Virus record (IMG/VR): IMGVR_UViG_3300046779_000501
Coordinates: 1-62,273 of that record
Reading direction: 5' to 3' (one strand)
Source of the DNA: a virus
Lineage: Duplodnaviria > Caudoviricetes
DNA: 62,273 bases
Shown here in pieces: positions 14,001-62,273 of the stretch; within the stretch, counting starts at the first letter, position 1; every line of letters starts with the position of its first letter. Under the pieces are notes generated by a model. That model was not told the DNA's origin. It saw only the letters and a list, made by a program, of their open reading frames with translations, and did not search any database. The position numbers and the translations under genes were made by a program.

Positions 14001-17000
14001 ATAAACACACTATATCGATTAGAGAATATGAGTGAGAAGATGGTGCGATATATGGCAGAACTTCTTAAAGAAGAAGCTACACCAGAAATCGTAAGACGTT
14101 TCCACAACTATAATCAGATCGTAAGAGAGTGGGAAAAAGTTATGGCTGATATGAGATCAGCGCTTGCTAGAGAAGGTATCATTAATAATGAACTTACTAC
14201 TTTAGTTTCAAAGATTAATTCTAACCTAGAGACAGCGAATGATTTTGACATTGAGTTGGGTATGCGTGGTTCTGAAGAACTACTTACTAAAACTTTGGAA
14301 CCTTTAGCTGAACAAGTTAGAACTTATTATGAAGGAGTCATAGCAGAATTAGAAAAGAAAGGAGCACCAGACAGAATACTAGCTCGATATAGAGCTGAGT
14401 ATGAAGATGCAAAACTAGATAGAGGTGCTGTAAAGGATTGGTTATCTGGTAAGCGTGGTGACACACATCCTATCAGTGCGTGGTTGGAATCTTTCATGAA
14501 CATTCAGGATCCTATTATCTTCGGTTTAGCTTCTTATATTAATGATAACATTAGTGAAGTATTAGTTAAAGCACAACAGAGACAGAATCAAGTTACTGCT
14601 GAATTGATGACAATGATTCAAGCAGCAGGATTAGACGCTAAGAACTTAGCAGAGTTTAGAGAAGCTGTTTCTTATGTAGAGAAAGAAGGTATCTATAATC
14701 AGAAAGGAGAATATGTTCCTAGAGATAGATATGCATTTATCCATCATCTTAAAGGATGGAGAGATGACATGGGTAGACTTCAGAATGCTATCAAGGAAGC
14801 AGAGAAGAAAGCTGTAGAAACAGGAGACAAAACAGAACTTACTGCTTTGCGATCTGCACTTAAGCAGTATCTAGATGATCATTACTACGACGAGTACGAC
14901 AACCGCGTGCGTGCCGCAGAAAGTTTGTTTACTAAAGATGAGATTGGTAAGAAAGCATACATTGCTCGATGGGATATTATATCTAAGATTAATAACTTAG
15001 ATAGTAGTAGACGTCAAAGAGAAGACTATTTGGATTCTGATTTTATCAATGAGCGTAAAAGCTACTGGGAGGATTACAGAAACTTGTACTCTCTAACTAA
15101 AGCTGACGGCACAAGTAAGGATCCAAATAGCGATGAATATAAAATTGCAGTAAGATTGTTAGAACATAGAGCTGCTACAAAGCAATTCTACGAGCAAGTA
15201 CCTATTAAGGGTATGTTCCAAGGAGCACTTAAGACTTTCGAACAACAACTTATATATAAAGGAATCAATCCCGGTAGTAAAGCTTGGGATGAAGAACGTA
15301 ATCGTTGGATAGAAGAGAACACTGTTGTTAGAGTAACACCTCAGTTCTGGATAGACGTTCAAGATGTTCTACAAAAGATTAGAAATATTAAAGCTAAGCT
15401 ACCTCAAGATACACAAGAGAAGCTAAAGATGGATGAGTTGTTCAAGGAATTGAACGATCAGATGAGCGCTTATAGAGATGACAACGGTCAACCCGATGGT
15501 AGCATCATGTCCGAAAAGAAGAAGAACCGCATCAAAGAACTTGACGAGGAGATTGATAATGCAAGAGACATGTTATCTAAGCTAAGTAACTTAACTCCTG
15601 AAGAGGATAAGTTTATGAAAGACTTTGAAACAGATCTTGCGTTGTTTAGTTTTACACAGAATCAGTTCTATCAAACAGATGATTTTGATTCAATAGATGA
15701 GCAGTTCTTTAAGAACAACCCAGAAAGATACGCAAGATACCAACAACTTGCAGATAAGAAAAAGGACGCGTCGTTATCCGAAATGGATATTGATGATTTG
15801 AATTACTTATACAAACAGTTGAATGCATTAAGAAGTCGTTCAGCAACTACTCAGTACTATGATCAGATTAATAGTTTTATCAAAACTGATCAGAACGGAC
15901 AAGGTATTGATCCAACTTACTTAGAAGAGAAAACCGGATTGAATTACTTTGATAGTTATAATATTGATGTGCTTACAGAAGATGCGGAAGCTCTACAAGA
16001 TTTGTTTGAACAAAGTCCTGAGTTTGAAAAGTGGTTTAAAGCTAATCACATTAAAAAGGAATTCGAATACACATACGGTCCTAATGAAGGTGAAAAGAAA
16101 ATTACTTACAAGAGATCTAGTGCTTGGAGTGTAACTCGTCCTAATGATGAGAAGTACTACGAGAAAACTGACATCTTAGATGAAGCAGGTAATGTTGAGG
16201 AGACTATTAATAGAGTACCTAATCAAACTTATTTTAGAAGAGCGCTTAAGAAAGAGTACAGAACTGAAAGAGTTACTATGAAGGAAGCTCTTGAGATGGG
16301 CGATCTTACAAAAGCTACTGTTGACGAGCAGGGTCGTTGGTTACCACGTCCTGATAGTAAATACAGAAATGATGAGTACTTCCAAATGAAGTCTGTAAAC
16401 AAAGCTAAGTTTGATTTAGTAAATAAATTACTCTTGACTCACTTACAGAACCAAGAAGGACTGAATGTTAATGCTAGACTAGGGGTATTCTTACCGCGTT
16501 ATCGTAAAGATAAATACGAGATGTTTACATCGGGAGAAACAAAAGATCGTTTCCAGTCTATGATTAAGAACTTCAAAGCGTCTTTCCAAAAAGCTGTTGA
16601 TGATTATAGCGAAGGATACAATGCTGAGAATCAAGTTACGTATGTAAGTTTGGATATGTTTGATAAGGAACTTGCTGGTATTCCAATTACAGGTAAGTTT
16701 GACCTAGATCTTAATGAAACATCTGAAGATGTAATCTCCGGATTGTTTAGATATATGTTATCAGCAGAGCGCCAGAAGAAACTTATTGAGATTAACCCTA
16801 ACGTAAGAGCAATTCAAAAGGTTGTAAATAGTGAGGAGGGTAAAGTAAAAGATATGCTTAAAGCAAACAAACGTGATTACTTAACTCAGGGAATTACGAA
16901 CTTTGCTACTAAGAAAGGAAGATCTGTAAGATCGCAAGTCATTAATGCATTTATAGAGCGTGAGTTTGAAGGTAAGCAACTTGCAGGACCTACAGAAAAC

Positions 17001-51770: not shown

Positions 51771-52047
51771 CGAAGTTTAAAGAAACGTTGTCATCTAATA
51801 GATCCGGAAACTCATCAGGAAAGAATTCCTCATAGTACGTTTCTATTTCATCAACATTTTCTTCATCTACAACATCTTCTTCAGTAACACCTGAATCTTG
51901 TTTACTAATAGAAGAGTGTTTAAAGGGATTATGAATATGCTCCCCAGCATTGACTGCTATCAAGAATTGCAAGTCTTCTTTAGATAGATTTATAACATCG
52001 TCTACCTCTAACCAAACTACTTTTCCTGTGGGGAGCTGATATAGCAT
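51763..52047 (-). CDS. Hypothetical acidic protein
   Basis: Likely start MLYQLPTGK at 52047, 3 nt after a TAACTTTG promoter element. Confidence 0.7.
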   Translation of the reverse strand: MLYQLPTGKVVWLEVDDVINLSKEDLQFLIAVNAGEHIHNPFKHSSISKQDSGVTEEDVVDEENVDEIETYYEEFFPDEFPDLLDDNVSLNFED

Positions 52048-52050
52048 AAT

Positions 52051-52058
52051 CAAAGTTA
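52051..52058 (-). promoter_or_regulatory. Bacteroidota -7 promoter element TAACTTTG (near-leaderless)
   Basis: Exact TAnnTTTG match immediately before an ATG. Confidence 0.55.
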
Positions 52059-52103
52059 GTGAAATACCAAATAATTGGTACACAGTAACTTAAATAATTT
52101 ACA

Positions 52104-52298
52104 TTATATAGCTAATGCTATGATACTTACTACTAGAGCAGTAACAGATATAAGGTATAAAGCAAGAATATGATTCTTACTAAACTCCCATATTTTAACG
52201 GTATTATCGATTAATTCTACCATATTTTTAGCATTACTTTTCTTGTACGCTTCGAATGTGCCCATATATACGGCACGTTTGTCTTGACTTTCACTCAT
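52104..52298 (-). CDS. Small protein with C-terminal TM
   Basis: Hydrophobic C-terminus, coupled ORF. Confidence 0.55.
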   Translation of the reverse strand: MSESQDKRAVYMGTFEAYKKSNAKNMVELIDNTVKIWEFSKNHILALYLISVTALVVSIIALAI

Positions 52299-52744
52299 AT
52301 TAATTCATCTAAATTAGGACGTACTAGTCCTATGGTTTTTACAACATGGTTCATCTCTATGTTCCAGCTAGAGGTTAGGTTTTCACCAACGGTATTGATA
52401 GCAGGATACTCAACTCTCATAGTCTGTGTATACTTATCTGTAGATTTGACGGTACATCTTACATGATCGTTCTCATCTATGATACCTTGTTCTCTCATAG
52501 CATTCTCATCATATCTATATGAATAGAGATTATCTGTATGGACAATAACACCATCACCTGGTACATAAAGAGACTCATTAAAGACATATCCGTCTAATGA
52601 TTTGAATATAACATCTGTAATAGTACTATTACCAGACATCAATACATCAGCTATTTGTCTTACACACTCAGGTTTAAGATCCTTTAAGTGACTGGATAAC
52701 TTAATGGTAAGATAGTCTTCATCAACTTTTACACTAAACGCCAT
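52295..52744 (-). CDS. Hypothetical protein
   Basis: ORF with AT-rich leader. Confidence 0.65.
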   Translation of the reverse strand: MAFSVKVDEDYLTIKLSSHLKDLKPECVRQIADVLMSGNSTITDVIFKSLDGYVFNESLYVPGDGVIVHTDNLYSYRYDENAMREQGIIDENDHVRCTVKSTDKYTQTMRVEYPAINTVGENLTSSWNIEMNHVVKTIGLVRPNLDELI

Positions 52745-52782
52745 AGTTTTGTTATTTAATTAAATTTTATTACCTTTACTAT

Positions 52783-53790
52783 ATGGCTAGTAAACCAACT
52801 AAGAGAGGAGAGATTGTAACATCCTACCTTTCAAAACACAAAACAACTCCCATTCTTACTCTTGCTAAACTTATTTTCTCTGAGAAATCTGATTACTTTA
52901 AATCTGTAGAAGATGTAAGGGATGTAATTAGATATCATACAGGATTAAAGGGTAACAAGGATAAGAAGAACATAACTAACAAAGAGTTTATTCGTGAGAA
53001 AACCTATAAGTACAATCCTTTTGATGAAATACCTAAGTCTTACAAAGAAGACAGTATAGTACTTACACTAGGTAAATCATCACGTAAGGTAGCAGTCTTA
53101 TCTGACATACACTTTCCATATCATGATGAAGTAGCACTAAAGATTGCAATAGATTACTTAGTTGAATACAAACCAGACACAATAATTCTTAACGGAGATA
53201 TCTTAGACTTCTATGGTCTATCAGCATTTGATAAAGACCCAAGTAAACCTAAGATGCGAGAAGAATTAGAACAGGGTAGATGGTTTATCTCAGCAATGAG
53301 ACAAACCTTTCCTAACGCACTCATATACTATAAGATAGGTAACCATGAAATGCGTCTTGAACGCTGGTTAAAACTTAAAGCACCTGAGTGGTTAGGAAAT
53401 GAGGAGTTTGAGATACCAATTCTACTTAAGTTTGGAGAGAATCGTATCCATCTAGTGGAAAAGTTCACTACAATCAAAGCAGGTAATCTCAATATCATAC
53501 ACGGTCATGAATACAAAGGTGGTGGAACAGTAAATCCAGCACGTAATATGTATCTCAAGACCAAAGCGTCCGTAATATGCGGACACTTCCACAGGAAATC
53601 AGAATTCCTCACAACAGACATAGACGGTGTAGTACATGGATCATGGTCAACAGGATGCTTATGTGAACTAAATGCAGAGTATATGAATACTCATACAGAT
53701 TGGGTTCATGGATTTGCAACAGTTGATGTGAACCAAGACGGCACCTTCTCTGTTAGTAACAAACTAATTAGTAACGGTAAAGTACTATAA
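52783..53790 (+). CDS. Calcineurin-like metallophosphoesterase
   Basis: SDIH, NGDILD, GNHE, HGH, GHFH motifs. TACCTTTA element at 52771-52778 just upstream. Confidence 0.88.
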   Translation: MASKPTKRGEIVTSYLSKHKTTPILTLAKLIFSEKSDYFKSVEDVRDVIRYHTGLKGNKDKKNITNKEFIREKTYKYNPFDEIPKSYKEDSIVLTLGKSSRKVAVLSDIHFPYHDEVALKIAIDYLVEYKPDTIILNGDILDFYGLSAFDKDPSKPKMREELEQGRWFISAMRQTFPNALIYYKIGNHEMRLERWLKLKAPEWLGNEEFEIPILLKFGENRIHLVEKFTTIKAGNLNIIHGHEYKGGGTVNPARNMYLKTKASVICGHFHRKSEFLTTDIDGVVHGSWSTGCLCELNAEYMNTHTDWVHGFATVDVNQDGTFSVSNKLISNGKVL

Positions 53791-53792
53791 CA

Positions 53793-54023
53793 ATGGCAAC
53801 TTACATTAAAGCCGGAATATTTAATCCACCTGGTATAGAAGACGAGGAGGATTATATTCAACCAATGGTATACATAGATGAGGAGAAAATACAAGTACTC
53901 AACGAAGACGATGAGCTTGTAGTTCAATTCACATATGAGGAACTCAGAGGTTTAATGGCGATAATGGCAGCTGAACAAGAGAAACAACATTTGTTTATCA
54001 AAGCGTCAGCAAAGAATAATTAA
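53793..54023 (+). CDS. Hypothetical acidic protein
   Basis: Follows the phosphoesterase after a 2-nt gap. Confidence 0.6.
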   Translation: MATYIKAGIFNPPGIEDEEDYIQPMVYIDEEKIQVLNEDDELVVQFTYEELRGLMAIMAAEQEKQHLFIKASAKNN

Positions 54024-54762
54024 AAGCGATTTCTTCTCCGAGTTTATCGTTATAACTTCTCAGTTCATCTTTAGATAAATTAAAATCAACCTTTAAATCT
54101 AATGCTAAACATCTATTAGATAGTTCAGTATAGAAATAGGAGTGTCTATTTAAGTTACCTGTAATATAACCATTTACTATAGCTTCTGCGGATTTAGCAA
54201 TAGAGAAGAATGGTATAAAACTAGCAAGAAAGTTACCGTCCTTGTTTAACTTTATTAAGAAAGTATGTAACATTTCTGGTGTCATATCGCTGTTCTTTAA
54301 CCAAGGTTTACTCTTAATGAATGCTTTACATAGTTCAACAGGATCTGTAATCTTCTTACTGAGTATCTTACCAAACATAGTAGCAGTCATCAAAGACTTA
54401 ATGGGATAAAAGATAGGTTGTAACCATTCATCACCCGTATAGTCTATTATTTTACCCCACGTATAGTCACTAAATGAATTTGGTACACTCTTATACCAGA
54501 ACTTAAACTTCTTGGTAGTCTTATCATAAGTAAAACCTTCTCTCTGTTTATCTGTTTGAGACCATGCTTTACCATTATTAAACCTGATATTCTTACCTTC
54601 ATTACCTAAACAGAGTTTGTTATCATCTTCATAGATGAAAGAATAACGTGAATTGTAAGAACCCCGATTAGTGTAATATTCTAATCTCTGCCGTTTAGGT
54701 GTGAAGTTAAAGAAATTGTAATGTCTATCTATAGTCTCTTGACCAATAATAATCTCTCTCAT
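53998..54762 (-). CDS. Hypothetical protein
   Basis: 254-aa ORF coupled to the upstream gene. Confidence 0.65.
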   Translation of the reverse strand: MREIIIGQETIDRHYNFFNFTPKRQRLEYYTNRGSYNSRYSFIYEDDNKLCLGNEGKNIRFNNGKAWSQTDKQREGFTYDKTTKKFKFWYKSVPNSFSDYTWGKIIDYTGDEWLQPIFYPIKSLMTATMFGKILSKKITDPVELCKAFIKSKPWLKNSDMTPEMLHTFLIKLNKDGNFLASFIPFFSIAKSAEAIVNGYITGNLNRHSYFYTELSNRCLALDLKVDFNLSKDELRSYNDKLGEEIAFNYSLLTL

Positions 54763-54944
54763 TTAAATTCAATGTTTGTAGGTTCAACATTATTTGGACT
54801 AATAACAACGGTGGTACCAACGGGAGTTCTCTCACTCTCACTATGTATTACTAAACCGTGTATCATATTATTAGTAGTCATAGTAACCACAAATAGATAG
54901 ATCATTCCATCACCCATTGGGTATTTTACTATTATATTATCCAT
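54759..54944 (-). CDS. Small hypothetical protein
   Basis: Coupled at both ends. Confidence 0.6.
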   Translation of the reverse strand: MDNIIVKYPMGDGMIYLFVVTMTTNNMIHGLVIHSESERTPVGTTVVISPNNVEPTNIEFK

Positions 54945-55312
54945 TAGAAGTCTACATTAGGATTAAACTTGGTGATTTCAGGATCTATAACTTCAACAGC
55001 AGATGCGGGTAATTCTACTTTCTCTCTACTAGTATATTGCTCGTTATATGATTTGATAACAATACAATCTAAAATAGTATCTGCATAGTCACCTACTGTA
55101 CCTGACGGTAATACAACAATTACCATTAGATAAACAGGAGTAGGATCACCGGTAGGAAACCATTTCACGGTAGAATAATGATATTTATCTTGCATATCAT
55201 AATACCATTGCTCTTGTGTTTCAATCCATGCAATGTACTCTGCTTCATTTTGTGCTTCAAGAAACGCTTGTTCTTGTAGATACGCACTGTAGTCTTCTTC
55301 TGAATTAAACAT
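54944..55312 (-). CDS. Hypothetical acidic protein
   Basis: ORF with AT-rich leader. Confidence 0.65.
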   Translation of the reverse strand: MFNSEEDYSAYLQEQAFLEAQNEAEYIAWIETQEQWYYDMQDKYHYSTVKWFPTGDPTPVYLMVIVVLPSGTVGDYADTILDCIVIKSYNEQYTSREKVELPASAVEVIDPEITKFNPNVDF

Positions 55313-55379
55313 ATTGTTTATTTTTAATTGGTTAATAAGAATAGTATATTAGGACCCGATGTTACTCGAGTCCCATATA

Positions 55380-55892
55380 TCACGAAAGTTTAGAAAGACT
55401 GTATACTCTCTTTACAATATGACCCATATCACTGTCAATGTTGATAGTATCTTTCTTCTCGATAAGATAACCGGGAAAGTGATTAGTTAGTCTATTGAAG
55501 ATTTCATCTTCATTACTGAACTCCCAATCACCCCATCGCAATGCCATAGAGCATCCAAGTTCTTCTGACGTATGGTTAATACCATCAGTTGACGGGAAAT
55601 AATACGTTTCACAAACACCAAATGACGTAGATGCTATGATATGGAATCTACTTTGACTCAATATTGAATCATTGAAACTCGTATAAGCATCATCATCATC
55701 TTCCAGAGTTTCTGATTCATAAAGTTCCATCCAAGACTCTTCTTCTAACTGATCTTGTTCTAACTGATCTTGTTCGGAATGATACATCTGTTCGTAGACT
55801 TCTTCTACCATATGATTCATTTGAAGAACAACAGAGAATAAATCACTCTCTTGTACCATAGGGTACTTTTCTTTGAATTCTTGTAGTGTCAT
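55380..55892 (-). CDS. Highly acidic hypothetical protein
   Basis: D/E-rich, internal EQDQL-EQDQL duplication. Confidence 0.65.
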   Translation of the reverse strand: MTLQEFKEKYPMVQESDLFSVVLQMNHMVEEVYEQMYHSEQDQLEQDQLEEESWMELYESETLEDDDDAYTSFNDSILSQSRFHIIASTSFGVCETYYFPSTDGINHTSEELGCSMALRWGDWEFSNEDEIFNRLTNHFPGYLIEKKDTINIDSDMGHIVKRVYSLSKLS

Positions 55893-55924
55893 TGCTTTTA
55901 AATGTTAGTTAATGATTTAATGGA

Positions 55925-56050
55925 TTATTTTAATTCTTCATCTAGATAATACATTCTAACAGCTTTAGCTCTTATATCTGCATTATTCCACGAAGGGTGT
56001 AATTCTTTAACTTGTGCTTCATAAGCATCAATCATTTCTTCTTTTGTCAT
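55925..56050 (-). CDS. 41-aa micro-protein (not in ORF track)
   Basis: AT-rich leader. MTKEEMIDAYEAQVKELHPSWNNADIRAKAVRMYYLDEELK. Confidence 0.65.
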   Translation of the reverse strand: MTKEEMIDAYEAQVKELHPSWNNADIRAKAVRMYYLDEELK

Positions 56051-56075
56051 TGTTTAACTTTTAATTGTTTGTATT

Positions 56076-56193
56076 TCAAGTTTGCCCCTCTGCACTCAGA
56101 TGTGTTACGCCAGTGACTAGCTAATACTAGTATATGGATGTTCGTACACATCTGCTCACCCTTGGGAAGTGAGTTGTGGTGCATTAACAATGA
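56076..56193 (-). ncRNA. Candidate twister self-cleaving ribozyme (type P1)
   Basis: - strand reads UUG-U-UAA-UGCA-CC-acaa-CUCAC-UUCCCAAGG-GUGAG-[CAGAUGUGU...ACACAUCUG]-AG-UGCA-GA-GGGG-CAA. This gives the conserved UAA, P2, P4 with a UCCCAAG loop, a T1 pseudoknot to GGGG, and CC/GG for T2. Confidence 0.72.
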
Positions 56194-56282
56194 GAGGACT
56201 GATTACCCTCTCTGTACCGTTTTGCAGGTTGAAGCTCTATTCTCCACACCTAGTCTGTGACTATACAGTGGCTGGTTGTTAA
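56184..56282 (-). ncRNA. Candidate multibranch RNA element 2
   Basis: Closing UUAACAA/UUGUUAA. Internal stems CUGUA/UACAG, UAGUC/GACUA, AGGU/ACCU, GAGAGG/CCUCUC. Confidence 0.4.
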
Positions 56283-56365
56283 CAATGACACATCTGTGAA
56301 TAGCTTTGAATGTGCATTACTGTAAGCCTTGCACTTACTCGGGAGCATGTATTCCTCCATTGTTA
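56280..56365 (-). ncRNA. Candidate four-way-junction RNA element 3
   Basis: 8-bp closing stem UAACAAUG/CAUUGUUA. Arms GGAG/CUCC, GUAAG/CUUAC (loop UGCAAGG), CACAU/AUGUG. Confidence 0.45.
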
Positions 56366-56366
56366 G

Positions 56367-56467
56367 TACTCTCATAAGGTTGCAACCCTTAACATCTTTA
56401 CCATATTCGTCACTGTCTAAAAGACTAACGCGGAAAGAACTATACTACCTGCAATTGGATGAGAGTA
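56367..56467 (-). ncRNA. Candidate tRNA-like element 4
   Basis: Acceptor-like stem UACUCUCA/UGAGAGUA directly stacked on a T-arm-like UAAGG-GUUGCAA-CCUUA. Long central arm in place of an anticodon arm. Confidence 0.45.
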
Positions 56468-56899
56468 TATAAACCACTAATACCTGTTACAAGTATATAG
56501 CAATATGTTGATTTTCCCACGGTCCATACCAAAACCGATAATGATGTGAACACTCTTATATCGTTATACAAGATGCGTGGGAAATCAACGATTCGAAACA
56601 ATCCGGACTACAATGTATTACAAATCACTATTATAGTAGTACTGTATATAGTCCGTATGTTTCAATGTTATTCGCTGTCGATTATGATCTCAACAGTATT
56701 AATGCGGGAAATCTCGATCTTCTGATCAACAAAAGCTCGGAGTAACTCAATAGAATCGGTCTCTAAAAGAACAACTCTCTTAAGCTTACATATAAGGATA
56801 TAAGTAACCATACGTATATACATAGAGTAATGGAGAGAGCACGGTAGATAAGTAAAGTCTTGCTATACTTATATAGAGGTGAACTCAATTACGAATTGT

Positions 56900-56982
56900 G
56901 GTGTGTGTGGTGAGAGTAAGAACTGTGAGAGTGTTTGATTCTCACAGTCCTTAACGTTCTCACTATCAGCACGTTACACACG
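56900..56982. other. Long imperfect hairpin just downstream of the 56984-57508 gene
   Basis: ACTGTGAGA/TCTCACAGT core, extended by GTGAGA/TCTCAC and GTGT/ACAC. Confidence 0.55.
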
Positions 56983-56983
56983 T

Positions 56984-57508
56984 TTAGAACGGTGCGCTTC
57001 CGTCGTTAGCGTTCTCATCGACAGGTTCGTTCTGTGCGACAGGTTCGTTATTAACGGGTGTTGCATCATTCGCAGGTGTCTGCTTCAACGCATTCACGGG
57101 AACTGCCGCTCTACTCGCGAACATGTTAGCGATGATAGACTTACTCGCTACTTCAGCGATTTGTTTCGCCATCTCGCTTCTAACTTCCGCTTCGATACCG
57201 TTCTTACGAGCGATACTGCGTAGCTTGCGTTCTTCGAAGTTAACCACGTAAGCACGTCCTGTCGTAGGACTCACGGTTACTTCGATGTTCACGCCTACGT
57301 GACCTGGATGCATGTACAACGGAAGACCAGTCTCTTCGCAATGTTGCAACTTATATCCTTGCGATGCAAGAAATTGCGAATATGCGTTCAACTCTGTCTG
57401 TGTCGCATCTACGATTCTGTAGACGAACATGTCCATCAACTGACCTTTGCGGTCACCGTTCTTGATTTTCACGGAGAACACTCCGTTTGGTTTTTCTACT
57501 GCTTTCAC
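56984..57508 (-). CDS. Putative early protein with SSB-like tail (ends GSAPF)
   Basis: GTG start overlapping the upstream stop, low-complexity linker, DGSAPF end. Paralog of 57780-58283. Confidence 0.7.
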   Translation of the reverse strand: MKAVEKPNGVFSVKIKNGDRKGQLMDMFVYRIVDATQTELNAYSQFLASQGYKLQHCEETGLPLYMHPGHVGVNIEVTVSPTTGRAYVVNFEERKLRSIARKNGIEAEVRSEMAKQIAEVASKSIIANMFASRAAVPVNALKQTPANDATPVNNEPVAQNEPVDENANDGSAPF

Positions 57509-57687
57509 TGTAGTATAGTATTAAAATGCGTAAGGACGTCACGCTCGTACAATCGACACCTATCGACTGCACCGAAATAGAAATCGTTCCCCAAATAGAA
57601 AAAACCCCGTAGATTACGCACCTGTCGACACGGACGACACCAACGTAATTTGTCGGTAGAATAGTAATCATTCGACATATACGACAT
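57505..57687 (-). CDS. 60-aa putative early protein
   Basis: A-rich leader (acaaaaacaaa-ATG), 4-nt overlap with the downstream start, CxxC. Confidence 0.5.
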   Translation of the reverse strand: MSYMSNDYYSTDKLRWCRPCRQVRNLRGFFYLGNDFYFGAVDRCRLYERDVLTHFNTILQ

Positions 57688-57741
57688 TTTGTTTTTGTCG
57701 TTCTATGTAGATTCGTTCTCCATATAGAGATTGAAAAACAA

Positions 57742-57768
57742 CAGACACTCACGCTAGTGAGTGCCTGT
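57742..57768 (-). terminator. Hairpin downstream of the 57780-58283 gene
   Basis: CACTCAC-gcta-GTGAGTG stem followed on the - strand by TCTGTTGTTTTT. Confidence 0.5.
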
Positions 57769-57779
57769 GTTTTGAGATC

Positions 57780-58283
57780 TTAGAATGGTGCACTACCAGC
57801 ATCAGACTGCTGTTCTTCAATCGGATCTGCTTCAGGAGCAGGTGGTTGAGCAGCAGCAGCAGGAGCGTCAGCGACTGGTGCAGCAGCGACAACCTTTCCT
57901 GCGACGATCTCGCGGATCTCCTGCATCGCCATACGCTCGATGCGGTTTAACCCCGCGTCTGTCGTAGTGAGTGCAGGATACTCTTCTTGCAGACGCTTCT
58001 CGATTTCCCCGCTGCTGATGATAAACCAGCGGGTTAAACCCGTCTTCGGATCGAGCTTGTTGGAGCGATAGCAGTATGCATCTCCGCGATGTCGCTTACT
58101 ATTCCAGCTCCTGATCATTGGAAGACCCGTCGCTGAATCAGGTCTGCTCTTCGGATTGTCGCGGAGAAATACTGCGAGAGCATCTCCTGCTAATCCGTGG
58201 ATAAGGAATGTGTGCGTGACGAAACGCGTTCCGTCGAAGGACTCCCCCTTCGCGGAATTGGAAAACTGTAATTTGTAATACAT
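57780..58283 (-). CDS. Putative early protein with SSB-like tail (ends GSAPF)
   Basis: Ala/Pro linker, DAGSAPF end, TGLP motif shared with 56984-57508. Confidence 0.7.
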   Translation of the reverse strand: MYYKLQFSNSAKGESFDGTRFVTHTFLIHGLAGDALAVFLRDNPKSRPDSATGLPMIRSWNSKRHRGDAYCYRSNKLDPKTGLTRWFIISSGEIEKRLQEEYPALTTTDAGLNRIERMAMQEIREIVAGKVVAAAPVADAPAAAAQPPAPEADPIEEQQSDAGSAPF

Positions 58284-58291
58284 CTAATCTG

Positions 58292-58631
58292 TAAGTCGTA
58301 TTAGTTAGACGCGAAGCGGTACATTAGTAACGCCACGACACGCAGTGGCGTGAAAAAGGTCACACCTTGTACATTACGATTAAGTCGTATTAGTTAGAAT
58401 GCGATAGAATCGCGCGCCTCAATTGTACTTGAGGACGCGCAATCCATTAGGTGCATACACAGCACCCCTACACTTGCTTGCGTGTGAGCACGCTTCGTCG
58501 AACGTAGTAAATACTACACTCTTGTCAGTCATGACACTGTGCTTACCAACACGTTGGTACACTTGATAAATAACTTTGTACATAAACTTTTTTTATTTAA
58601 TTACACCCATCATTCAGTTGTATCAGTTAGA
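58292..58631 (-). repeat. Dispersed 17-18 bp repeat, candidate early promoter (- strand TCTAACTRATACRACT)
   Basis: TAAGTCGTATTAGTTAGA exact at 58292-58309 and 58381-58398. Variant CAGTTGTATCAGTTAGA at 58615-58631. Confidence 0.7.
58419..58583 (-). CDS. 54-aa putative first early gene (not in ORF track)
   Basis: A-rich leader. MYKVIYQVYQRVGKHSVMTDKSVVFTTFDEACSHASKCRGAVYAPNGLRVLKYN. A repeat copy lies about 30 nt upstream. Confidence 0.5.
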   Translation of the reverse strand: MYKVIYQVYQRVGKHSVMTDKSVVFTTFDEACSHASKCRGAVYAPNGLRVLKYN

Positions 58632-58940
58632 AAAGAAGAGGGGGTACCCCGGTAGAGCGACAGCACCCGGGGACGTCGCGCATACGACCCCCTACACTCT
58701 CTCCTACATTAGTAATCTCGTGCCGTAATAACCCCAGGGGTACACGCACAACCAGATGTACCCGGGGGTATAATACTCAGTGGTATAATTATAACTGGTT
58801 ATATAACACCCGTTAAGGTATGATTATGTATGTTATAACGGACATTATACCCTAAAAGGTGTGCTAATGCATATTATATATGACATTATGTAGATAATCC
58901 GAATTATGCTTTTATACTTGTAGATATCTTTGTACTTTCG
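58632..58940. other. Divergent non-coding switch region with GC palindromes (candidate genome terminus/packaging/origin region)
   Basis: GGGGTACCCC palindrome, GGGTACA/TGTACCC hairpin, repeated AYACC-N4-6-GGTRT-like sites, strand switch. Confidence 0.4.
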
Positions 58941-58952
58941 TATATTATATAT
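58940..58952 (+). promoter_or_regulatory. Candidate late promoter motif GTATATTATATAT
   Basis: Identical to 18411-18423, abuts the ATG at 58953. Confidence 0.5.
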
Positions 58953-59402
58953 ATGGCGACTAATAACTATTTTGACATAGCTAGCGGAAAGATTATACCG
59001 ATTCCCACACCAGATAAACAAGTACCTAATGCACCCGGAGTGGTTATCATTGATGCTTATGCGCTTGGTGTAGATGAGTATACGATTTCCCCTACTGAGT
59101 TTACGTCTTATGATATGACGTTTATTGTTGCTGGTGCTGCTTCAATAGGTAAGAGTATTGTTGTTAATCTTCCCGATGTTAGTAATGTGGCACCTCCCCA
59201 AAAGATTACTATAAAGAATATATCACCTGATAATGTGGATCTGTATGCTTCGAGAGTAGATGCAGATACTTATGCGTTAGGTAACTATTTCCAAACTTTA
59301 AATACTCCGAATGTATCCGGAAATAAATCATCTATTAGCTTGATTGCTGATAATCAGTATGATGCACAATGGTACATAACTAACTTGTTTATATATCCAT
59401 AA
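58953..59402 (+). CDS. Putative tail/structural protein (beta-rich)
   Basis: V.LP......ITIKN...S..L......WYI pattern seen in tail-fibre distal domains. Confidence 0.55.
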   Translation: MATNNYFDIASGKIIPIPTPDKQVPNAPGVVIIDAYALGVDEYTISPTEFTSYDMTFIVAGAASIGKSIVVNLPDVSNVAPPQKITIKNISPDNVDLYASRVDADTYALGNYFQTLNTPNVSGNKSSISLIADNQYDAQWYITNLFIYP

Positions 59403-59415
59403 AAAATAAAAAATA

Positions 59416-62151
59416 ATGAACGTACTTCTTAGTTCTTTTCCAGGTGCCAACATGAACGACAAACTTGTTTATGCGGGTGCCAATGCTGTAGCAGGTTCTG
59501 TTATTGACTGTACATCCTATACAGGAACACAAACAATCACTAGAACGATTAGTGTTACTCGAAGCTTAACTTTTATACTTGGTAATGCTAGCTTAGTTGC
59601 AAACTTTGCAGCAGGTGATATTAACTCGCACATCTTTTGGGTGTTAGCAGATAATGTTCGTATTGAAGGTGTTAGCCGCACTAGTAATGCTACAGCAAAC
59701 GGTTATACCCGTTTTACAATGACTAACCAAGCTAGAGGTTACCATGTATTTGTAGGAAATAACACCGCATCAGGTGGTACTACATGGACTACCTATAATA
59801 ACTTCTCAATGGCAAACATTGATTGTCAAGGTATTCAGTCTGTTATTACAAATAGTGGTGGATCACCTGTATACGGAACAACTGGATCAGGAGGTGTATT
59901 TGTATTGAGTGGTAATCCGTCATCTGAGACAAGCACTGTATCTAATGTACGTATTGATAATGTATGGGTATCAGGAACAAGAACCCACGGTATCTTCTTA
60001 TATAATGCTGTAAACTCTAAGTTGACTAACTGTAGAGTAAGTTCTACAGCAGGTCATGGTATCTTCCTGTATAAAGGAAAAGGCAACTCATTAGACACAT
60101 GTTTTGCAACAGGTTGTAACCTTGCTGGTTTCTCTATTAAGGAAAACAACTATACTAGCTTGACTAGTTGTGCATCTGACTCTAATGGTATGGGTTATAT
60201 TCTAGATGAGAGTATGAACTGTACCCTAACTTCTTGTGGTGCCGAGGCAAACGTAATCCGAGTTACCCAACCAAACAACTTGGGTGTAACTATGGCAGCG
60301 TCAACACCATTTACCTTAACTGATATTGGTGCTGAAGCAGCGTTTAGATTTAAAGGAACTAGTTTCTGGTTAAGTTCAGGTTTGAATGTACAAAGTTGTG
60401 AGTCTAATAGTTTGATAAGCTGTTACTCTAAAGATCCTAGTAATGTATTAACAGGAGTATTTACAAGTGAGTACACTGCTCACTTTGGTCTAACAGGATA
60501 CGTTAGAAACTGTAGTATTATCAGTCCTAATACAGCTGGTACTGCTGTAACTAAGTATATCTTTAGATTAGATGAAAGTACGGTGGATGATGCATTTGTA
60601 CCTGGATTCAATACTATTAACTATAGAGCAATAAGTTACGATCCTACCAATCCAACAGAATCTGCTAATGGTTCATTTGCAGCAGTTGCTACAGTACTTG
60701 ATCAGGGTGCTTCAAATATGTTTGAACTAGCTGGTTCAGTAAAGTCATTTAATAATACTTCTCAAACTCTTGTTAAGACAGATGCTTATGCTAATGTAAA
60801 TAGAGAGATAGTCACTGATACTTTAGTTATTCCTACATATACATCACACCCTACTGTTCCTGGTAACTATGCAGGAGGTATGTATTTCAATACTACATTG
60901 AATAAGTTGTATATGTGGAATAATGGTTGGTATGACACATGTTGCAGTACTGTTACTACACCTGCATGTGCGTGGCCGTCTGGTTTCACTTATCCTGGTA
61001 ATCAAAATATTTTAAATCGCCTTGATCTAAAAGTAATTTTTGCTAATAATGTAGCTTATGTAGTAAGTGCAGCTAATTCAACATCAACACCTTATTCAAC
61101 TTTTGGATTACTTGATTTAAGTAATAATGCTTTTTATAATATACAAGAATCTTATGGTATAGATCAATATGAATGGATGTTTGATGTTGGTGAGAATAGT
61201 GCGGGTCAATTATGTACATACGCATTAGGTTATATACCCAATAGTGTTGGTAATCTCGGTGACTATACTACAGGAACACGTATATGGATGCGTAATACTG
61301 TAACTGGACAGGTTTCTTTTTTAGATGAGCCTGGTGATACAGAAATTCCAGGAGCTGTTTTAACTATGGGTGATGTGCGTGTAGCTGCTGATAAATTATG
61401 GGTATTTTTCAGAAGAGCTACTGCAGATAGAGCCTTATCATATATTAAATCTTATAGCTTAGATGATTTAAGTTTAATAGACTTTTACGATATTGAATCT
61501 CAATGGCCACTATCTGGAATGTCACCTAGATGTTATGCATCATATAGAGATAGAATGGTGTACGATGAAGTTAATGAAAACTTTATTTTAGGTGGTGGTG
61601 GTTCTTACCTTAATACATTTGGTCAAATATCTACGTTGTTTACATTTAATATACAAACAGGAACATTATCAGAATTAGATATTGTAAATGCTCCTAGTCT
61701 TATAAACAGAGGTTATCTTACTTTACACATTGCAAACGACATACTTTATATAGGATGCTCAAAAACAGGTAGCATTTATAAAAGAAGTATAACATCAGGT
61801 CCATATGACTATATTGGTAGTGTTTCTGTATTTGATGATATGAATATAACTGGTATACAATCATATACTGTAGGTGCTACAGATTATTTATTTGTTACTA
61901 GTTATACAGGAACGTTTTCAGGTTATCCTATAAATAACAATAGTAATAATACAATGTTATTCCTTTATGATGTTACCAATGATTTATTAGACTCAGCTAG
62001 CCAGATTGTTCCACTTTCCAATTTTTTTTACAAACCAATGGTTGCAATGACTGTTGATGAAACAAACGGTGTTTTATGGTTAAATACTCAAAATGCAGAA
62101 GACGGAACTCCTGCTGCAGGTAGTTTATTAAAAACTTGTTTACCAGCTTAA
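59416..62151 (+). CDS. Tailspike / tail fibre with right-handed beta-helix (pectate lyase-like) domain
   Basis: Repeats such as HGIFLY...NC....GHGIFLY...C.A..C...GF, a MYFNTTLNKLY.W linker, and a beta-propeller-like C-terminal part. Confidence 0.8.
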   Translation: MNVLLSSFPGANMNDKLVYAGANAVAGSVIDCTSYTGTQTITRTISVTRSLTFILGNASLVANFAAGDINSHIFWVLADNVRIEGVSRTSNATANGYTRFTMTNQARGYHVFVGNNTASGGTTWTTYNNFSMANIDCQGIQSVITNSGGSPVYGTTGSGGVFVLSGNPSSETSTVSNVRIDNVWVSGTRTHGIFLYNAVNSKLTNCRVSSTAGHGIFLYKGKGNSLDTCFATGCNLAGFSIKENNYTSLTSCASDSNGMGYILDESMNCTLTSCGAEANVIRVTQPNNLGVTMAASTPFTLTDIGAEAAFRFKGTSFWLSSGLNVQSCESNSLISCYSKDPSNVLTGVFTSEYTAHFGLTGYVRNCSIISPNTAGTAVTKYIFRLDESTVDDAFVPGFNTINYRAISYDPTNPTESANGSFAAVATVLDQGASNMFELAGSVKSFNNTSQTLVKTDAYANVNREIVTDTLVIPTYTSHPTVPGNYAGGMYFNTTLNKLYMWNNGWYDTCCSTVTTPACAWPSGFTYPGNQNILNRLDLKVIFANNVAYVVSAANSTSTPYSTFGLLDLSNNAFYNIQESYGIDQYEWMFDVGENSAGQLCTYALGYIPNSVGNLGDYTTGTRIWMRNTVTGQVSFLDEPGDTEIPGAVLTMGDVRVAADKLWVFFRRATADRALSYIKSYSLDDLSLIDFYDIESQWPLSGMSPRCYASYRDRMVYDEVNENFILGGGGSYLNTFGQISTLFTFNIQTGTLSELDIVNAPSLINRGYLTLHIANDILYIGCSKTGSIYKRSITSGPYDYIGSVSVFDDMNITGIQSYTVGATDYLFVTSYTGTFSGYPINNNSNNTMLFLYDVTNDLLDSASQIVPLSNFFYKPMVAMTVDETNGVLWLNTQNAEDGTPAAGSLLKTCLPA

Positions 62152-62166
62152 TAATATTAAAAGACT

Positions 62167-62273
62167 ATGGTAGTAAAATTAGAAAATATAGGAGCTGGTG
62201 ATTTCCAGTCTCGACTAGCAATAGCAGCAGCAACAGTTTCTAACGGGACTGTTGTTGACTGTACATTTTATAC
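62167..62273 (+). CDS. Start of a second tailspike paralog (3' truncated)
   Basis: MVVKLENIGAGDFQSRLAIAAATVSNGTVVDCTFY aligns with MNVLLSSFPGANMNDKLVYAGANAVAGSVIDCTSY of the previous gene. Confidence 0.65.
   Translation, partial: MVVKLENIGAGDFQSRLAIAAATVSNGTVVDCTFY

What the first reader, a model, noticed from the sequence alone, without database searches (positions are those of the whole stretch)
56076..56982. Tandem array of structured RNA-like elements ending in a ribozyme: possible self-processing phage small-RNA cassette
Seen: about 0.9 kb without a credible ORF in a genome that is otherwise densely coding, tiled with back-to-back closed elements. These are 56184-56282, 56280-56365, 56367-56467, 56507-56589 (GTTGATTTTCCCAC/GTGGGAAATCAAC), about 56595-56664 (GAAACA/TGTTTC, CGGACTA/TAGTCCG) and 56900-56982. 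The 10-mer TTAACAATGA is repeated at 56184-56193 and 56279-56288, so two elements share the same 3' end on the - strand. The predicted twister cut lies at the base of element 2's closing stem, and that strand also forms twister P1. Inference: an early polycistronic transcript is cut into discrete 85-100 nt RNAs, analogous to tRNA-releasing theta ribozymes but using twister and non-tRNA cargo. Possible roles are decoys for anti-phage nucleases or regulators. This is the best candidate here for an undescribed system.
Basis: partly seen in the sequence, partly recalled or inferred. Interest (0 to 1): 0.85.

Follow-up and report, generated by a model that had tools for sequence, protein, structure and literature searches.

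The report
Ribozyme-punctuated RNA modules in a phage
A mostly non-coding stretch in the early region of an aquatic phage carries at least three conserved folded RNA modules, one of them a twister-type self-cutting RNA, which are shuffled like cassettes between related phages and whose purpose is still unknown.

Summary
On the - strand I find three RNA modules with covariation in relatives:
- A twister-like motif (56194-56081). There are 53 distinct relatives, and P2, P4 and P5 covary. No Rfam twister model detects it.
- "Module A" (56241-56187), a 21-nt invariant box plus a hairpin. In other phages it sits 4-10 nt after tRNAs.
- "Element 3" (56467-56367), a three-way-junction RNA with 100 distinct variants. 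P1 and P2 covary. It has no Rfam match.

Elements 5 and 6 are hairpins that start 1-3 nt after ORF stop codons. Between them lies a real 47-aa ORF (6 synonymous substitutions to 1 non-synonymous). Element 4 has only one, identical homologue. Elements 1 and 2 as drawn are not units: their fold energies are no better than shuffles, and a mosaic breakpoint lies at 56319/20.

Modules are swapped between phages whose neighbouring gene product is about 95% identical. In relatives, element 3 is directly followed by a twister-like motif in 4 of 105 contexts, or by an Rfam-confirmed Hatchet in 1 of 105. In 54 of 105 no recognised module follows within 600 nt.

My best reading is one ribozyme cut that separates a structured non-coding RNA from the downstream mRNA. 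The function of the cargo is unknown, and cleavage itself is untested.

The parts
56081..56194 (-). Twister-like self-cleaving motif, open at P1, with P5 and no P3. Predicted cut between U56186 and A56185. P2: 56183-56180 with 56094-56091. P4: 56173-56169 with 56059-56055. L4 loop: 56168-56060. P5: 56153-56146 with 56105-56098, carrying a 40-nt insert. Possible T1: CCC 56166-56164 with GGG 56088-56086. Possible T2: CC 56179-56178 with GG 56061-56060.
   Evidence: CM R1 scores 87.9 bits. Parse of 53 distinct relatives. Pair counts. z = -3.38 on the - strand against -1.49 on the + strand. No Rfam hit.
56187..56241 (-). Module A. A 21-nt near-invariant box AGCUUCAACCUGCNAAACGGU (56236-56216) followed by a 6-bp hairpin (56212-56192, 9-nt loop GUAAUCAGU). 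It ends 5 nt before the twister cut.
   Evidence: 24 IMG/VR stretches. CM R3 scores 73.6 bits. In the hairpin, 4 of 6 pairs change on both sides. G:C to A:U swap against L095. Flagged as terminator-like.
56242..56319 (-). Module B'. It begins with a degenerate copy of the twister 5' end (UAAUGCACAUUC, 56319-56308) and contains a nested hairpin (56271-56244: CCAC..UAGUC-ACA-GACUA..GUGG).
   Evidence: 93.7% identical block in L095 that ends at 56319. The inner hairpin covaries across L283 and L284: UAGUC/GACUA, AGGUC/GACCU, GACCC/GGGUC. The fold is not better than shuffles, z = -0.53.
56320..56365 (-). Lineage-specific 46-nt filler with two small hairpins. Relatives have other modules in this slot.
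   Evidence: No homology in L095 or L216. z = -1.80.
56367..56467 (-). Element 3, a three-way-junction RNA. P1: 56467-56460 with 56374-56367. Conserved J1/2: UCCAAUUGCAGG. Variable P2 arm. P3 hairpin AAGG-GUUGCAA-CCUU at 56390-56376.
   Evidence: 116 IMG/VR stretches. 100 distinct variants with compensatory P1 changes. CM R2 scores 71.7 bits. Pair counts. P2 covariation in one subfamily.
56507..56589 (-). Element 4, a long hairpin closed by a 13-14-bp stem. It occupies a module slot that holds other sequence in L216-L218.
   Evidence: z = -3.68. Identical in L215 only. 0 IMG/VR matches to both arms. There is no variation, so no covariation test was possible.
56595..56664 (-). Element 5, a hairpin that starts 3 nt after the stop codon of the 47-aa ORF. 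A mosaic breakpoint lies at 56594/56595.
   Evidence: z = -3.54. Outer stems are kept in L215-L218, with a U.G to C-G change that only makes sense for - strand RNA. The inner part is not conserved.
56668..56811 (-).
   Evidence: 7 distinct substitutions in L215-L218: 6 synonymous and 1 non-synonymous. The stop codon is kept.
56900..56982 (-). Element 6, a long hairpin that starts 1 nt after the stop codon of the 174-aa ORF (56984-57508).
   Evidence: z = -4.81. The central stem is kept in L215-L218 through G:C to G:U and U:A to U:G changes. The outer GUGUGU/ACACAC stem is lost in 3 of 4 relatives.

Best explanation
Read on the - strand, 56983 to 56051 is the intergenic and leader part of an early, hypervariable operon in a roughly 120-kb aquatic phage. 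It is a mosaic, not a uniform array.

LAYOUT, 5' TO 3'
1. A hairpin just after an ORF stop (element 6).
2. A real 47-aa ORF.
3. A second hairpin just after that ORF's stop (element 5).
4. A lineage-specific hairpin (element 4).
5. A non-coding block of about 390 nt built from independently exchangeable RNA modules: element 3 (a new three-way-junction family), a filler, module B', module A, and a twister-like ribozyme.

PREDICTED MECHANISM
- The ribozyme is predicted to cut once, between U56186 and A56185.
- The upstream product is a heavily folded non-coding RNA. It ends 6 nt after module A's hairpin with a 2',3'-cyclic phosphate.
- The downstream product is the mRNA for the 41-aa and 170-aa ORFs. 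It starts with a 5'-OH and keeps the folded ribozyme as its 5' structure.
- I infer that the cut insulates each downstream cassette from whatever lies upstream.
- I also infer that conserved module ends, above all the twister 5' end, serve as recombination joints that shuffle cassettes.

SHOWN: conservation, covariation, strand, mosaicism and the ORF.
INFERRED: actual cleavage, the fate of the products, and any trans-acting role of element 3 or of module B'-A.
For: TWISTER-LIKE MOTIF
- 53 distinct instances share U|AA-UGCA-CC-J-P4-UUCCCAAGG-P4'-C-P5-GAG-UGCA-GAGGG.
- P4 is 5 bp in all 53, in 8 sequence versions: CUCAC/GUGAG 24, CCUGA/UCAGG 15, UCUAC/GUAGA 9, and five singletons.
- P2 is UGCA/UGCA in 44, UGUA/UACA in 7 and UGUA/UGCA in 2.
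- P5 always pairs around inserts of 12-167 nt.
- CM R1 found 84 matches, 72 of them distinct. 88.5% of cells pair; 12 of 16 pairs change on both sides; 0 of 500 shuffles reach this. P2 is 97.0% paired and P5 98.7%.
- The layout fits the twister definition given in PMC6154101 (passages read): P1/P2/P4 with optional P5, a U-A cleavage site, and the L4 loop pairing with L1 and L2.

ELEMENT 3
- 116 IMG/VR stretches.
- Among 100 distinct variants the P1 pairings are UACUCUCA/UGAGAGUA 80, UUCUCUUA/UAAGAGAA 5, AACUCUCA/UGAGAGUU 4, UACUCUUA/UAAGAGUA 2, UAUUCUCA/UGAGAAUA 1 and UUCUCUCA/UGAGAGAA 1.
- 98.9% of cells pair; 21 cells change on both sides against 3.9 in shuffles.
- In a 10-sequence subfamily, 7 of 30 predicted pairs are compensatory.

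MODULE A
- 27 matches, 20 distinct. In the hairpin, 4 of 6 pairs change on both sides.
- It lies 4-10 nt after ARAGORN tRNAs in L275, L281 and L288.

RIBOZYMES BESIDE THE CARGO
- In L192 a Hatchet (1709-1846, 86.7 bits) abuts element 3 (1845-1976).
- A twister-like 5' half lies within 600 nt downstream of element 3 in 45 of 105 distinct contexts, and within 12 nt in 4.

MOSAICISM
- Four metagenome contigs are about 97% identical over 56595-56983, then switch modules exactly at 56594/5.
- L095 matches 56148-56319 and 56363-56517 only.
- RNA-library contigs from two studies run on into unlike sequence at 56318/9.

STRAND
- All flanking ORFs are on the - strand.
- Wobble-type substitutions fit - strand RNA only.
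- The twister-like motif gives z = -3.38 on the - strand and -1.49 on the + strand.
Against: - No Rfam twister model scores the motif. There were 0 hits at gathering on the window and on 14 relatives. There were none at E <= 10 on the window region or on a 79-nt minimal copy. RF03160 and RF02684 hit 0 of 5 records.
- P1 is weak: a mean of 2.2 contiguous bp against 1.5 when permuted, and none at all in 15 of 53.
- The two pseudoknots are complementary but invariant, so they are untested.
- In the CM alignment P4 is mis-registered (58.9% paired). The P4 claim therefore rests on my own parse, which pre-selected canonical loops.
- No read-level evidence exists. Only contigs were available, and RNA libraries may contain DNA.
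- Element 3 has none of my recognised modules within 600 nt downstream in 54 of 105 contexts.
- The modules are sporadic. Among 8 relatives that are at least 90% complete, element 3 occurs in 1 and the twister-like motif in 4.
- The B'-A block does not fold better than shuffles, z = -0.31.
- The retrieval patterns fixed the element-3 core and the module-A box, so their invariance is partly circular.
Confidence: 0.6

Rival explanations
1. One reading: one early transcript is cut at every element boundary into six discrete 85-100-nt RNAs that act as decoys or regulators.
For: Several closed stems abut one another. The ribozyme cut falls where predicted. In relatives, element 3 can be bounded directly by a twister-like motif or a Hatchet. 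L106 carries three twister-like copies within 1.4 kb.
Against: Only one ribozyme is found in the window. Elements 1 and 2 are not units. Elements 5 and 6 sit just after ORF stop codons, and a conserved 47-aa ORF lies between them. Nothing bears on a decoy function.
Confidence: 0.12
2. The modules are cis-acting leader elements for the genes downstream (for example a riboswitch, a processive antitermination RNA, or a stabiliser of the mRNA 5' end), not released small RNAs.
For: In 22 of 104 contexts an ATG ORF of at least 40 aa starts 25-38 nt after element 3. The twister-like motif lies directly upstream of ORFs here and in 8 loci that carry a DUF2828 gene. Element 3 has a highly conserved junction with a variable peripheral arm. 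Module A's hairpin is often followed by a U-rich tract.
Against: The overall share of contexts with an ORF start within 120 nt (34 of 104) is no higher than at random positions (0.36). Downstream neighbours are heterogeneous: ORFs, other modules, ribozymes. Module A also sits between tRNAs, where gene control makes little sense.
Confidence: 0.25
3. The twister-like motif is a folded but non-catalytic RNA, either a relic or a protein-binding structure, and the transcript is processed by host RNases if at all.
For: All Rfam twister models miss it. P1 is weak. Degenerate copies that lack the P2 5' strand exist in relatives.
Against: The nucleotides that correspond to the twister loops and the cleavage site are strictly conserved across 53 variants, while the helices vary only by compensation. 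According to PMC6154101 (passages read), P1 is dispensable for cleavage. A different, Rfam-confirmed ribozyme class (Hatchet) occupies equivalent positions in relatives.
Confidence: 0.2
4. The inverted repeats act at the DNA level (operators, recombination sites, an origin or packaging signals) and no RNA structure matters.
For: The + strand folds as well as the - strand for elements 3-6. Element 3 carries a 10-nt palindrome. Mosaic breakpoints coincide with conserved sequences.
Against: Many G.U pairs would be A.C mismatches on the other strand. Compensatory changes keep pairing rather than sequence. The asymmetric twister-like architecture and its pseudoknot complementarity have no meaning in DNA.
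Confidence: 0.05

Closest known systems
Twister ribozyme (type P1 with the optional P5 stem)
   Same: It has a U-A site followed by a 4-bp P2, a 5-bp P4 capped by a C-rich/AAG loop, and an optional P5. The loop is complementary to both internal-loop strands (possible T1 and T2). The motif lies 5' of the RNA it stays attached to (definition from PMC6154101, passages read).
   Different: It is not detected by RF03160, RF02684 or any other Rfam 15 model. P5 is always present and carries inserts of 12-167 nt, whereas PMC6154101 says P5 occurs in 1% of annotated twisters. P1 is weak or absent. As far as I recall, the T2 partners differ from the classic consensus; I did not check this against a seed alignment.
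Clusters of self-cleaving ribozymes and uncharacterised RNA structures near phage-type genes in bacteria (the context used to discover twister-sister, pistol and hatchet)
   Same: Different ribozyme classes occupy equivalent places: a twister-like motif here, Hatchet in L096, L124, L165 and L192. Unexplained structured RNAs sit beside them. The review PMC6765202 (section 13 read in full, plus passages) says that the biological role is elusive and that polycistron processing has been proposed.
   Different: Here the setting is the hypervariable early region of roughly 120-kb phages found in aquatic metagenomes. The partner modules (element 3, module A) have no Rfam family. I could not see the original 2015 paper or its supplements, so these motifs may be among its unpublished 'did not cleave' candidates.
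Theta (minimal HDV-like) ribozymes at the 3' ends of phage tRNAs
   Same: Module A is a short conserved RNA placed 4-10 nt after phage tRNAs and after other folded RNAs. The twister-like motif and Hatchet abut the 3' end of element 3 in some relatives. According to PMC10879173 (passages read), theta ribozymes lie within 5 nt of tRNAs and are proposed to cut off the 3' trailer.
   Different: No HDV-type nested fold could be drawn for module A (my own inspection, no tool result), and no HDV family hit was found. In the window the cargo is not a tRNA. PMC10879173 describes theta ribozymes as so far limited to phages of mammalian gut microbiomes.
Rfam freshwater-1 (RF02979) and Ocean-VII (RF03092) RNA motifs
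   Same: Module A's hairpin, a G-rich stem with a G-AACCAAG-type loop followed by AUAAAA, resembles the hairpin in both models.
   Different: Scores are 10.8 and 9.0 bits against gathering scores of 72 and 53.5. The 21-nt box of module A is not part of those models. This is a resemblance only.
Ro60-Y RNA ribonucleoproteins
   Same: In 8 relatives, a DUF2828+DUF7788 gene follows element 3 and the twister-like motif directly. By language-model features its nearest named clusters are TROVE/vWA_Ro60 (24 of 30 hits, score 0.92). Like a Y RNA, element 3 is closed by pairing of its 5' and 3' ends next to a conserved junction, with a variable far end.
   Different: The gene is absent from the window. 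It does not co-occur strictly: G012, G017 and G021 have it without element 3 or the twister-like motif, and G038 is the reverse. There is no sequence match to solved Ro60 structures. Binding was not tested.

Membership tests
Twister ribozyme | U-A (N-A) cleavage dinucleotide in the internal loop directly 5' of P2 | tested here: met
   All 53 distinct instances have N|AA before P2. N is U in every instance listed. In the window this is U56186|A56185.
Twister ribozyme | Helices P2 and P4, with optional P3 or P5, supported by covariation | tested here: met
   P2: 44, 7 and 2 instances of three pair sets. P4: 8 fully paired versions in 53 of 53. P5 always pairs. In the CM alignment P2 is 97.0% and P5 98.7% paired, and 12 of 16 pairs change on both sides. 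P4 is mis-registered in that alignment.
Twister ribozyme | Double pseudoknot: the L4 loop pairs with L1 (T1) and with L2 (T2) | tested here: inconclusive
   CCC/GGG and GG/CC complementarity sits at the expected places in all 53. These positions are invariant, so no covariation is available. Divergent copies give no consistent compensation.
Twister ribozyme | P1 helix that closes the motif | tested here: inconclusive
   Mean of 2.2 contiguous bp against 1.5 when permuted (0 of 500 permutations as high). At least 3 bp in 23 of 53 and none in 15 of 53. According to PMC6154101, P1 is dispensable for cleavage.
Twister ribozyme | Match to the curated Rfam covariance models (twister-P1, -P3, -P5) | tested here: not met
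   0 hits at gathering. None at E <= 10. RF03160 and RF02684 hit 0 of 5 records. I therefore call it twister-like and do not file it as an Rfam member.
Twister ribozyme | Site-specific self-cleavage that gives 2',3'-cyclic phosphate and 5'-OH ends | not testable with these tools
   Only assembled contigs of RNA libraries could be laid.
tRNA or tRNA-like cargo | Cloverleaf recognised by ARAGORN or Rfam RF00005 | tested here: not met
   0 tRNAs in the window. Relatives do carry tRNAs elsewhere.
Theta / HDV-like ribozyme | Nested double-pseudoknot fold with the cleavage site at its own 5' end, next to a tRNA | tested here: not met
   No HDV family hit in the window or in module-A loci. Module A has only 7 nt before its first stem, too few for P1 plus P2 (my own inspection). 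The tRNA adjacency is met in relatives only.
Hatchet ribozyme | Match to RF02678 | tested here: not met
   None in the window. Present in relatives L096, L124, L165 and L192 at 81-87 bits.
Rfam freshwater-1 / Ocean-VII | Score at or above the gathering threshold | tested here: not met
   10.8 bits against 72, and 9.0 bits against 53.5, on a module-A copy. No hit in the window.
Y RNA (Ro60 partner) | A Ro60/TROVE protein encoded nearby and a Ro-binding stem in the RNA | tested here: not met
   There is no DUF2828 or TROVE gene in the window and no Y_RNA or YrlA hit. The link is a lead from relatives only.

The most novel reading that the evidence does not exclude
Element 3 and module A (with its partner module B/B') are two undescribed classes of functional phage RNA. 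Three readings remain open:
- One or both could be new self-cleaving ribozymes. Module A would then be the aquatic-phage counterpart of theta ribozymes, trimming the 3' ends of tRNAs and of other folded RNAs. Modules A and B occur in both orders (A-B after tRNAs, B-A before the twister-like motif), which may be circular permutation.
- Alternatively, element 3 could be a Y-RNA-like partner of the phage DUF2828 (TROVE-like) protein, released with defined ends by twister-like or Hatchet ribozymes.
- Either way, the ribozymes would act as natural insulators and recombination joints for a shuffling library of early-expressed RNA and protein cassettes.
Probability: 0.2. Interest if true: 0.85.

Novelty: new variant of a known kind. 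Interest (0 to 1): 0.68.

Why it matters
Why self-cleaving ribozymes cluster with each other and with phage-type genes has been an open question since twister was found; the review PMC6765202 says their roles are 'largely elusive'.

This locus gives a concrete, testable system:
- a divergent twister subfamily that current Rfam models miss;
- two abundant RNA motif families with no Rfam family, found almost only in phage records (1 hit in 185,579 prokaryote species genomes, on a 3.5-kb contig of a metagenome-assembled genome);
- ribozymes of two classes in interchangeable positions;
- clear cassette shuffling between near-identical phages.

If the cut is real, this is a natural example of ribozyme-based insulation of gene cassettes. 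It could also explain how phages make defined small RNAs without host RNases. The module A-tRNA link and the DUF2828 (TROVE-like) link each point to a specific experiment.

Tried and rejected
- Rfam at a relaxed threshold on the region gave only chance miRNA and snoRNA hits.
- blastn of 55300-58400 against 50,697 deposited phages found nothing. Pfam and PHROGs on the flanking ORFs gave nothing useful.
- A single-protein search of IMG/VR with the 174-aa neighbour found no relative.
- The closest DNA-polymerase relative (G001, 99% identical) has no match to window 52000-62273, so it could not serve for comparison.
- Element 4: no second copy of both arms in IMG/VR, so no covariation test was possible.
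- My closing-helix test for the element-3 interior was weak: a mean of 4.09 bp against 3.2 in shuffles. RNAalifold on one subfamily was more informative.
- Sequencing runs: 15 RNA-library runs hold small shares of the stretch (at most 0.17 of the sampled words). The four that I laid are contigs only. They give no ends, no strand and no expression level, and may contain DNA. The high contig depth at 56224-56303 in X1 cannot be read as abundance.
- I considered HDV, hammerhead and pistol folds for element 3 and module A by eye and rejected them, because the defining core sequences or strand order are missing. This rests on no tool result beyond the Rfam negatives.
- I tested strict linkage of DUF2828 to these RNAs and rejected it.
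- The first module-A alignment (A6) used wrong coordinates for + strand loci and was discarded. A7 replaces it.
- My regex for module B failed to classify arrangements. The A-B and B-A orders were read from the printed contexts.
- Literature: searches (the last with the motif strings) found no description of element 3 or module A. The original discovery papers and all supplements were not visible to me and may list them.
Full report
SETTING. The window is an IMG/VR virus record of 62,273 nt, estimated 52% complete. Relatives found through the DNA polymerase (81 of 82 candidate stretches confirmed; the best 80 kept as loci) include genomes of about 113-125 kb with terminal repeats. From about 21 kb to 58.6 kb nearly all ORFs lie on the - strand, with a divergent junction near 58.7-58.95 kb. 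The finding therefore lies about 2 kb into a leftward, presumably early, transcription unit. Runs that hold parts of the stretch carry freshwater, riverine and estuary labels, but the shares are small (at most 0.17 of the sampled words).

CHECK OF THE OBSERVATION. The quoted stems and the duplicated 10-mer are present. On the - strand, elements 3-6 fold better than dinucleotide shuffles (z = -2.95 to -4.81). Elements 1 and 2 do not (z = -1.15 and -0.95). The + strand folds about as well for elements 3-6. Rfam at gathering thresholds finds nothing in the window, ARAGORN finds no tRNA, and a relaxed Rfam search of 55800-57200 returns only four chance miRNA or snoRNA matches.

The region is not ORF-free. 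Four metagenome contigs that encode the neighbouring 174-aa protein at 95-96% identity are about 97% identical over 56595-56983. Within 56668-56811 (-), their 7 distinct substitutions are 6 synonymous and 1 non-synonymous, and the stop codon is kept. With roughly one quarter of random changes expected to be synonymous, I estimate 6 or more of 7 as about 1 in 1000 (my own rough figure). I take this as a real 47-aa gene.

Elements 6 and 5 begin 1 and 3 nt after the stop codons of the 174-aa and 47-aa ORFs. Their main stems persist through G:C to G:U, U:A to U:G and U.G to C:G changes, which make sense only for - strand RNA. The outer stem of element 6 and the inner part of element 5 are not conserved. 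I read these as 3' structures of the two ORFs' mRNA, not as separate units.

THE TWISTER-LIKE MOTIF. blastn against relatives showed short, highly conserved patches. A regular-expression harvest over the fetched loci gave 53 distinct instances of one architecture: N|AA, a 4-bp P2, CC, a 3-4-nt joiner, a 5-bp P4 around the loop UUCCCAAGG, C, a P5 of 4-13 bp with a 12-167-nt insert, then GAG, the P2 partner, and GAGGG.
- P4 occurs in eight fully complementary versions: 24, 15, 9 and five singletons.
- P2 switches C:G to U:A in 7 instances and to U.G in 2.
- The window's P5 (AGAUGUGU/ACACAUCU) differs from the common AGUUGUAA/UUACAACU by compensation.

A covariance model built on 34 of the instances (A2, R1) found 84 matches in 100 sources, one of them in the window (56081-56194, 87.9 bits). 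On that alignment 88.5% of cells pair, 12 of 16 pairs change on both sides, and 0 of 500 shuffles reach this. P4 is mis-registered there (58.9% paired), because the joiner length varies, so the P4 statement rests.

The layout fits the description of twister in PMC6154101 (passages read): P1, P2 and P4, with optional P0, P3 and P5 (P5 in 1% of annotated examples); a U-A scissile site; and the L4 loop pairing with L1 and L2 to form T1 and T2. The complementary triplet and doublet are in the right places but never vary, so the pseudoknots are untested. P1 is weak.

Against membership, no Rfam twister model scores any copy, not even the 79-nt minimal ones. I therefore call it twister-like. I think it is probably a divergent twister subfamily, and I put self-cleavage at about 0.75.

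ELEMENT 3. Its two arms are the most conserved part of the region in phages whose DNA polymerase is only 56-60% identical. The 24-nt 3' motif occurs in 116 IMG/VR stretches. A second scan that anchored only on the central 15-mer brought in variants of the closing helix.

Among 100 distinct elements of 52-203 nt (lengths include 2 flanking nt on each side), P1 is UACUCUCA/UGAGAGUA in 80. It shows matched double changes in 13 more, spread over five other versions. The CM alignment gives 98.9% pairing, and 21 cells change on both sides against 3.9 expected.

The interior is replaced wholesale between subfamilies. Within one subfamily of 10 sequences, 7 of 30 predicted pairs are compensatory. The shortest member (49 nt) lacks the interior arm altogether.

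The core is thus P1, a conserved 10-12-nt joining strand, a variable arm, and a small hairpin that presents a self-complementary loop. The hairpin and the junction never vary in my sample. That is partly because I retrieved by them, so nothing can be said about their pairing.

Only 1 hit was found in one genome each of 185,579 prokaryote species, on a 3.5-kb contig of a metagenome-assembled genome. The family therefore looks phage-borne.

MODULE A AND ITS NEIGHBOURS. The stretch directly before the twister cut is conserved at 75-80% in other phages. Its 20-nt box occurs in 24 IMG/VR stretches, on contigs of up to 182 kb. A CM (R3) finds 27 matches, 20 of them distinct. The 6-bp hairpin has 4 pairs with double changes, including G:C to A:U between the window and L095.

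What precedes module A varies:
- tRNAs called by ARAGORN, ending 4-10 nt upstream (L275, L281, L288);
- tRNA-like ends (L278, L282);
- a module B (L098, L274, L280);
- the window's type B' (also L095, L286, L276, L283, L284), whose inner hairpin covaries;
- a type B'' (5 loci).

B lies after A in the tRNA arrays and before A elsewhere, which may be circular permutation. I could not establish a joint fold. The hairpin is often followed by a U-rich tract and was flagged as terminator-like in the window. Its best Rfam resemblances (freshwater-1, Ocean-VII) are far below threshold.

MOSAIC STRUCTURE. L216-L218 keep 56595-56983 but replace element 4 with about 250 nt of other modules. L216 and L217 then carry an identical element 3, a different module after it, and a twister-like motif with a different P5. 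L095 shares 56148-56319 and 56363-56517 at about 93%, but not the 46 nt between them.

The breakpoint at 56319/20 falls on a degenerate copy of the twister 5' end. RNA-library contigs from two studies diverge at 56318/9, and another diverges at 56594. The stem it would close is not conserved. The modules are sporadic among relatives.

RIBOZYMES AND CARGO. Of 105 distinct element-3 contexts with at least 200 nt downstream:
- 45 have a twister-like 5' half within 600 nt on the same strand;
- 4 have it within 12 nt;
- 1 has a Hatchet core directly after, confirmed by Rfam in L192 (86.7 bits), starting where element 3 ends;
- 54 have none of my recognised modules.

Hatchet also lies upstream of element 3 on the same strand in L096, L124 and L165. 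In 22 of 104 contexts an ORF starts 25-38 nt after element 3. However, the overall share with an ORF start within 120 nt (34 of 104) does not exceed a random control of 0.36.

INTERPRETATION. What is shown:
- three conserved, covarying RNA modules on the transcribed strand;
- one with twister architecture;
- cassette-like exchange of modules;
- ribozymes of two classes in equivalent places.

What I infer is a single self-cleavage at 56186|56185. It would release a folded non-coding RNA (element 3 through module A, and possibly more upstream) and leave the ribozyme on the 5' end of the mRNA for the 41-aa and 170-aa ORFs. The effect would be to insulate cassettes from their changing upstream context. 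This agrees with the proposal, reported in PMC6765202 (section 13, read in full), that bacterial twister and hammerhead ribozymes process polycistronic transcripts. The comparison with engineered ribozyme insulators and with T4 promoter/stem-loop cassettes rests on recall only.

The function of element 3 and of B'-A remains open. Cis-regulatory, trans-acting and catalytic roles are all compatible with the data.

A LEAD FROM RELATIVES. In 8 loci the twister-like motif is followed within about 210-370 nt by a 467-aa-type gene with DUF2828 and DUF7788 domains. Its nearest named clusters by language-model features are TROVE/vWA_Ro60 (24 of 30 hits, score 0.92, 160 shared features, which is below the 170 that is typical of true family members). 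It is absent from the window, does not co-occur strictly with the RNAs, and shows no sequence match to solved structures. It suggests, but does not show, a Ro/Y-RNA-like partnership.

LIMITS.
- Retrieval by exact patterns inflates the apparent invariance.
- All relatives are metagenomic.
- No raw reads were available.
- The original ribozyme discovery papers and all supplements were not visible.

Noticed in passing
window 56984-57508 (-) and 57780-58283 (-): Two adjacent early ORFs (174 and 167 aa) both end in an acidic, proline-rich tail that finishes ...GSAPF. DGSAPF is invariant in 9 homologues. Apart from the tail, the two are not detectably similar. The tail recalls the C-terminal tip of bacterial SSB (recalled, not tested). 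G+C here is 0.44-0.48, against about 0.35 elsewhere. There are no Pfam or PHROG hits.
   Followed up: partly
L216:4850-6253; also L109, L151, L148, L084, L134, L154, L257: A DUF2828+DUF7788 gene lies directly downstream of the twister-like motif in 8 relatives. Its nearest named clusters by language-model features are TROVE/vWA_Ro60. In G012, G017 and G021 the same gene is preceded by about 400-470 nt without an ORF of at least 50 aa, and these stretches lack all modules described here.
   Followed up: partly
L096:46-208, L165:258-395, L192:1709-1846, L124:2069-2206: Rfam-confirmed Hatchet ribozymes (81-87 bits) lie on the same strand as the RNA modules in four relatives. In L192 the Hatchet starts where element 3 ends.
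   Followed up: yes
L094, L095, L124, L129, L161, L165, L189, L216-L218: A further recurrent module, AAUAGAAAGG-hairpin-GUAUACCU-hairpin ('module C'), follows element 3 within 12 nt in 6 contexts. It has no Rfam match and is not present in the window.
   Followed up: no
L106:3707-5104; L162, L153, L116, L119, L118: L106 carries three twister-like copies within 1.4 kb. Several relatives hold degenerate copies that keep the 3' half but lack the P2 5' strand.
   Followed up: no
L220:9031-9153: One element-3 variant carries, in its variable arm, a stem-loop that looks like a tRNA T-arm (GUGG-UUCAAAU-CCAC).
   Followed up: no
window 788-11062 (+) and 11064-18398 (+): Two giant ORFs (3424 and 2444 aa) have no Pfam match at E <= 0.001.
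   Followed up: no
window 55925-56050 (-): The 41-aa ORF directly after the twister-like motif is absent in L095. There the homologue of the 170-aa ORF follows the ribozyme directly, so its coding status is uncertain.
   Followed up: no
L281:78-450: A phage contig of about 160 kb encodes a tmRNA (92.5 bits; tag peptide called by ARAGORN) next to a tRNA, module A and module B.
   Followed up: no
G001 (L002's record): A phage with a 99% identical DNA polymerase has no nucleotide match to window 52000-62273. This shows how fast this end of the genome turns over, unless the contig is chimeric or rearranged.
   Followed up: no
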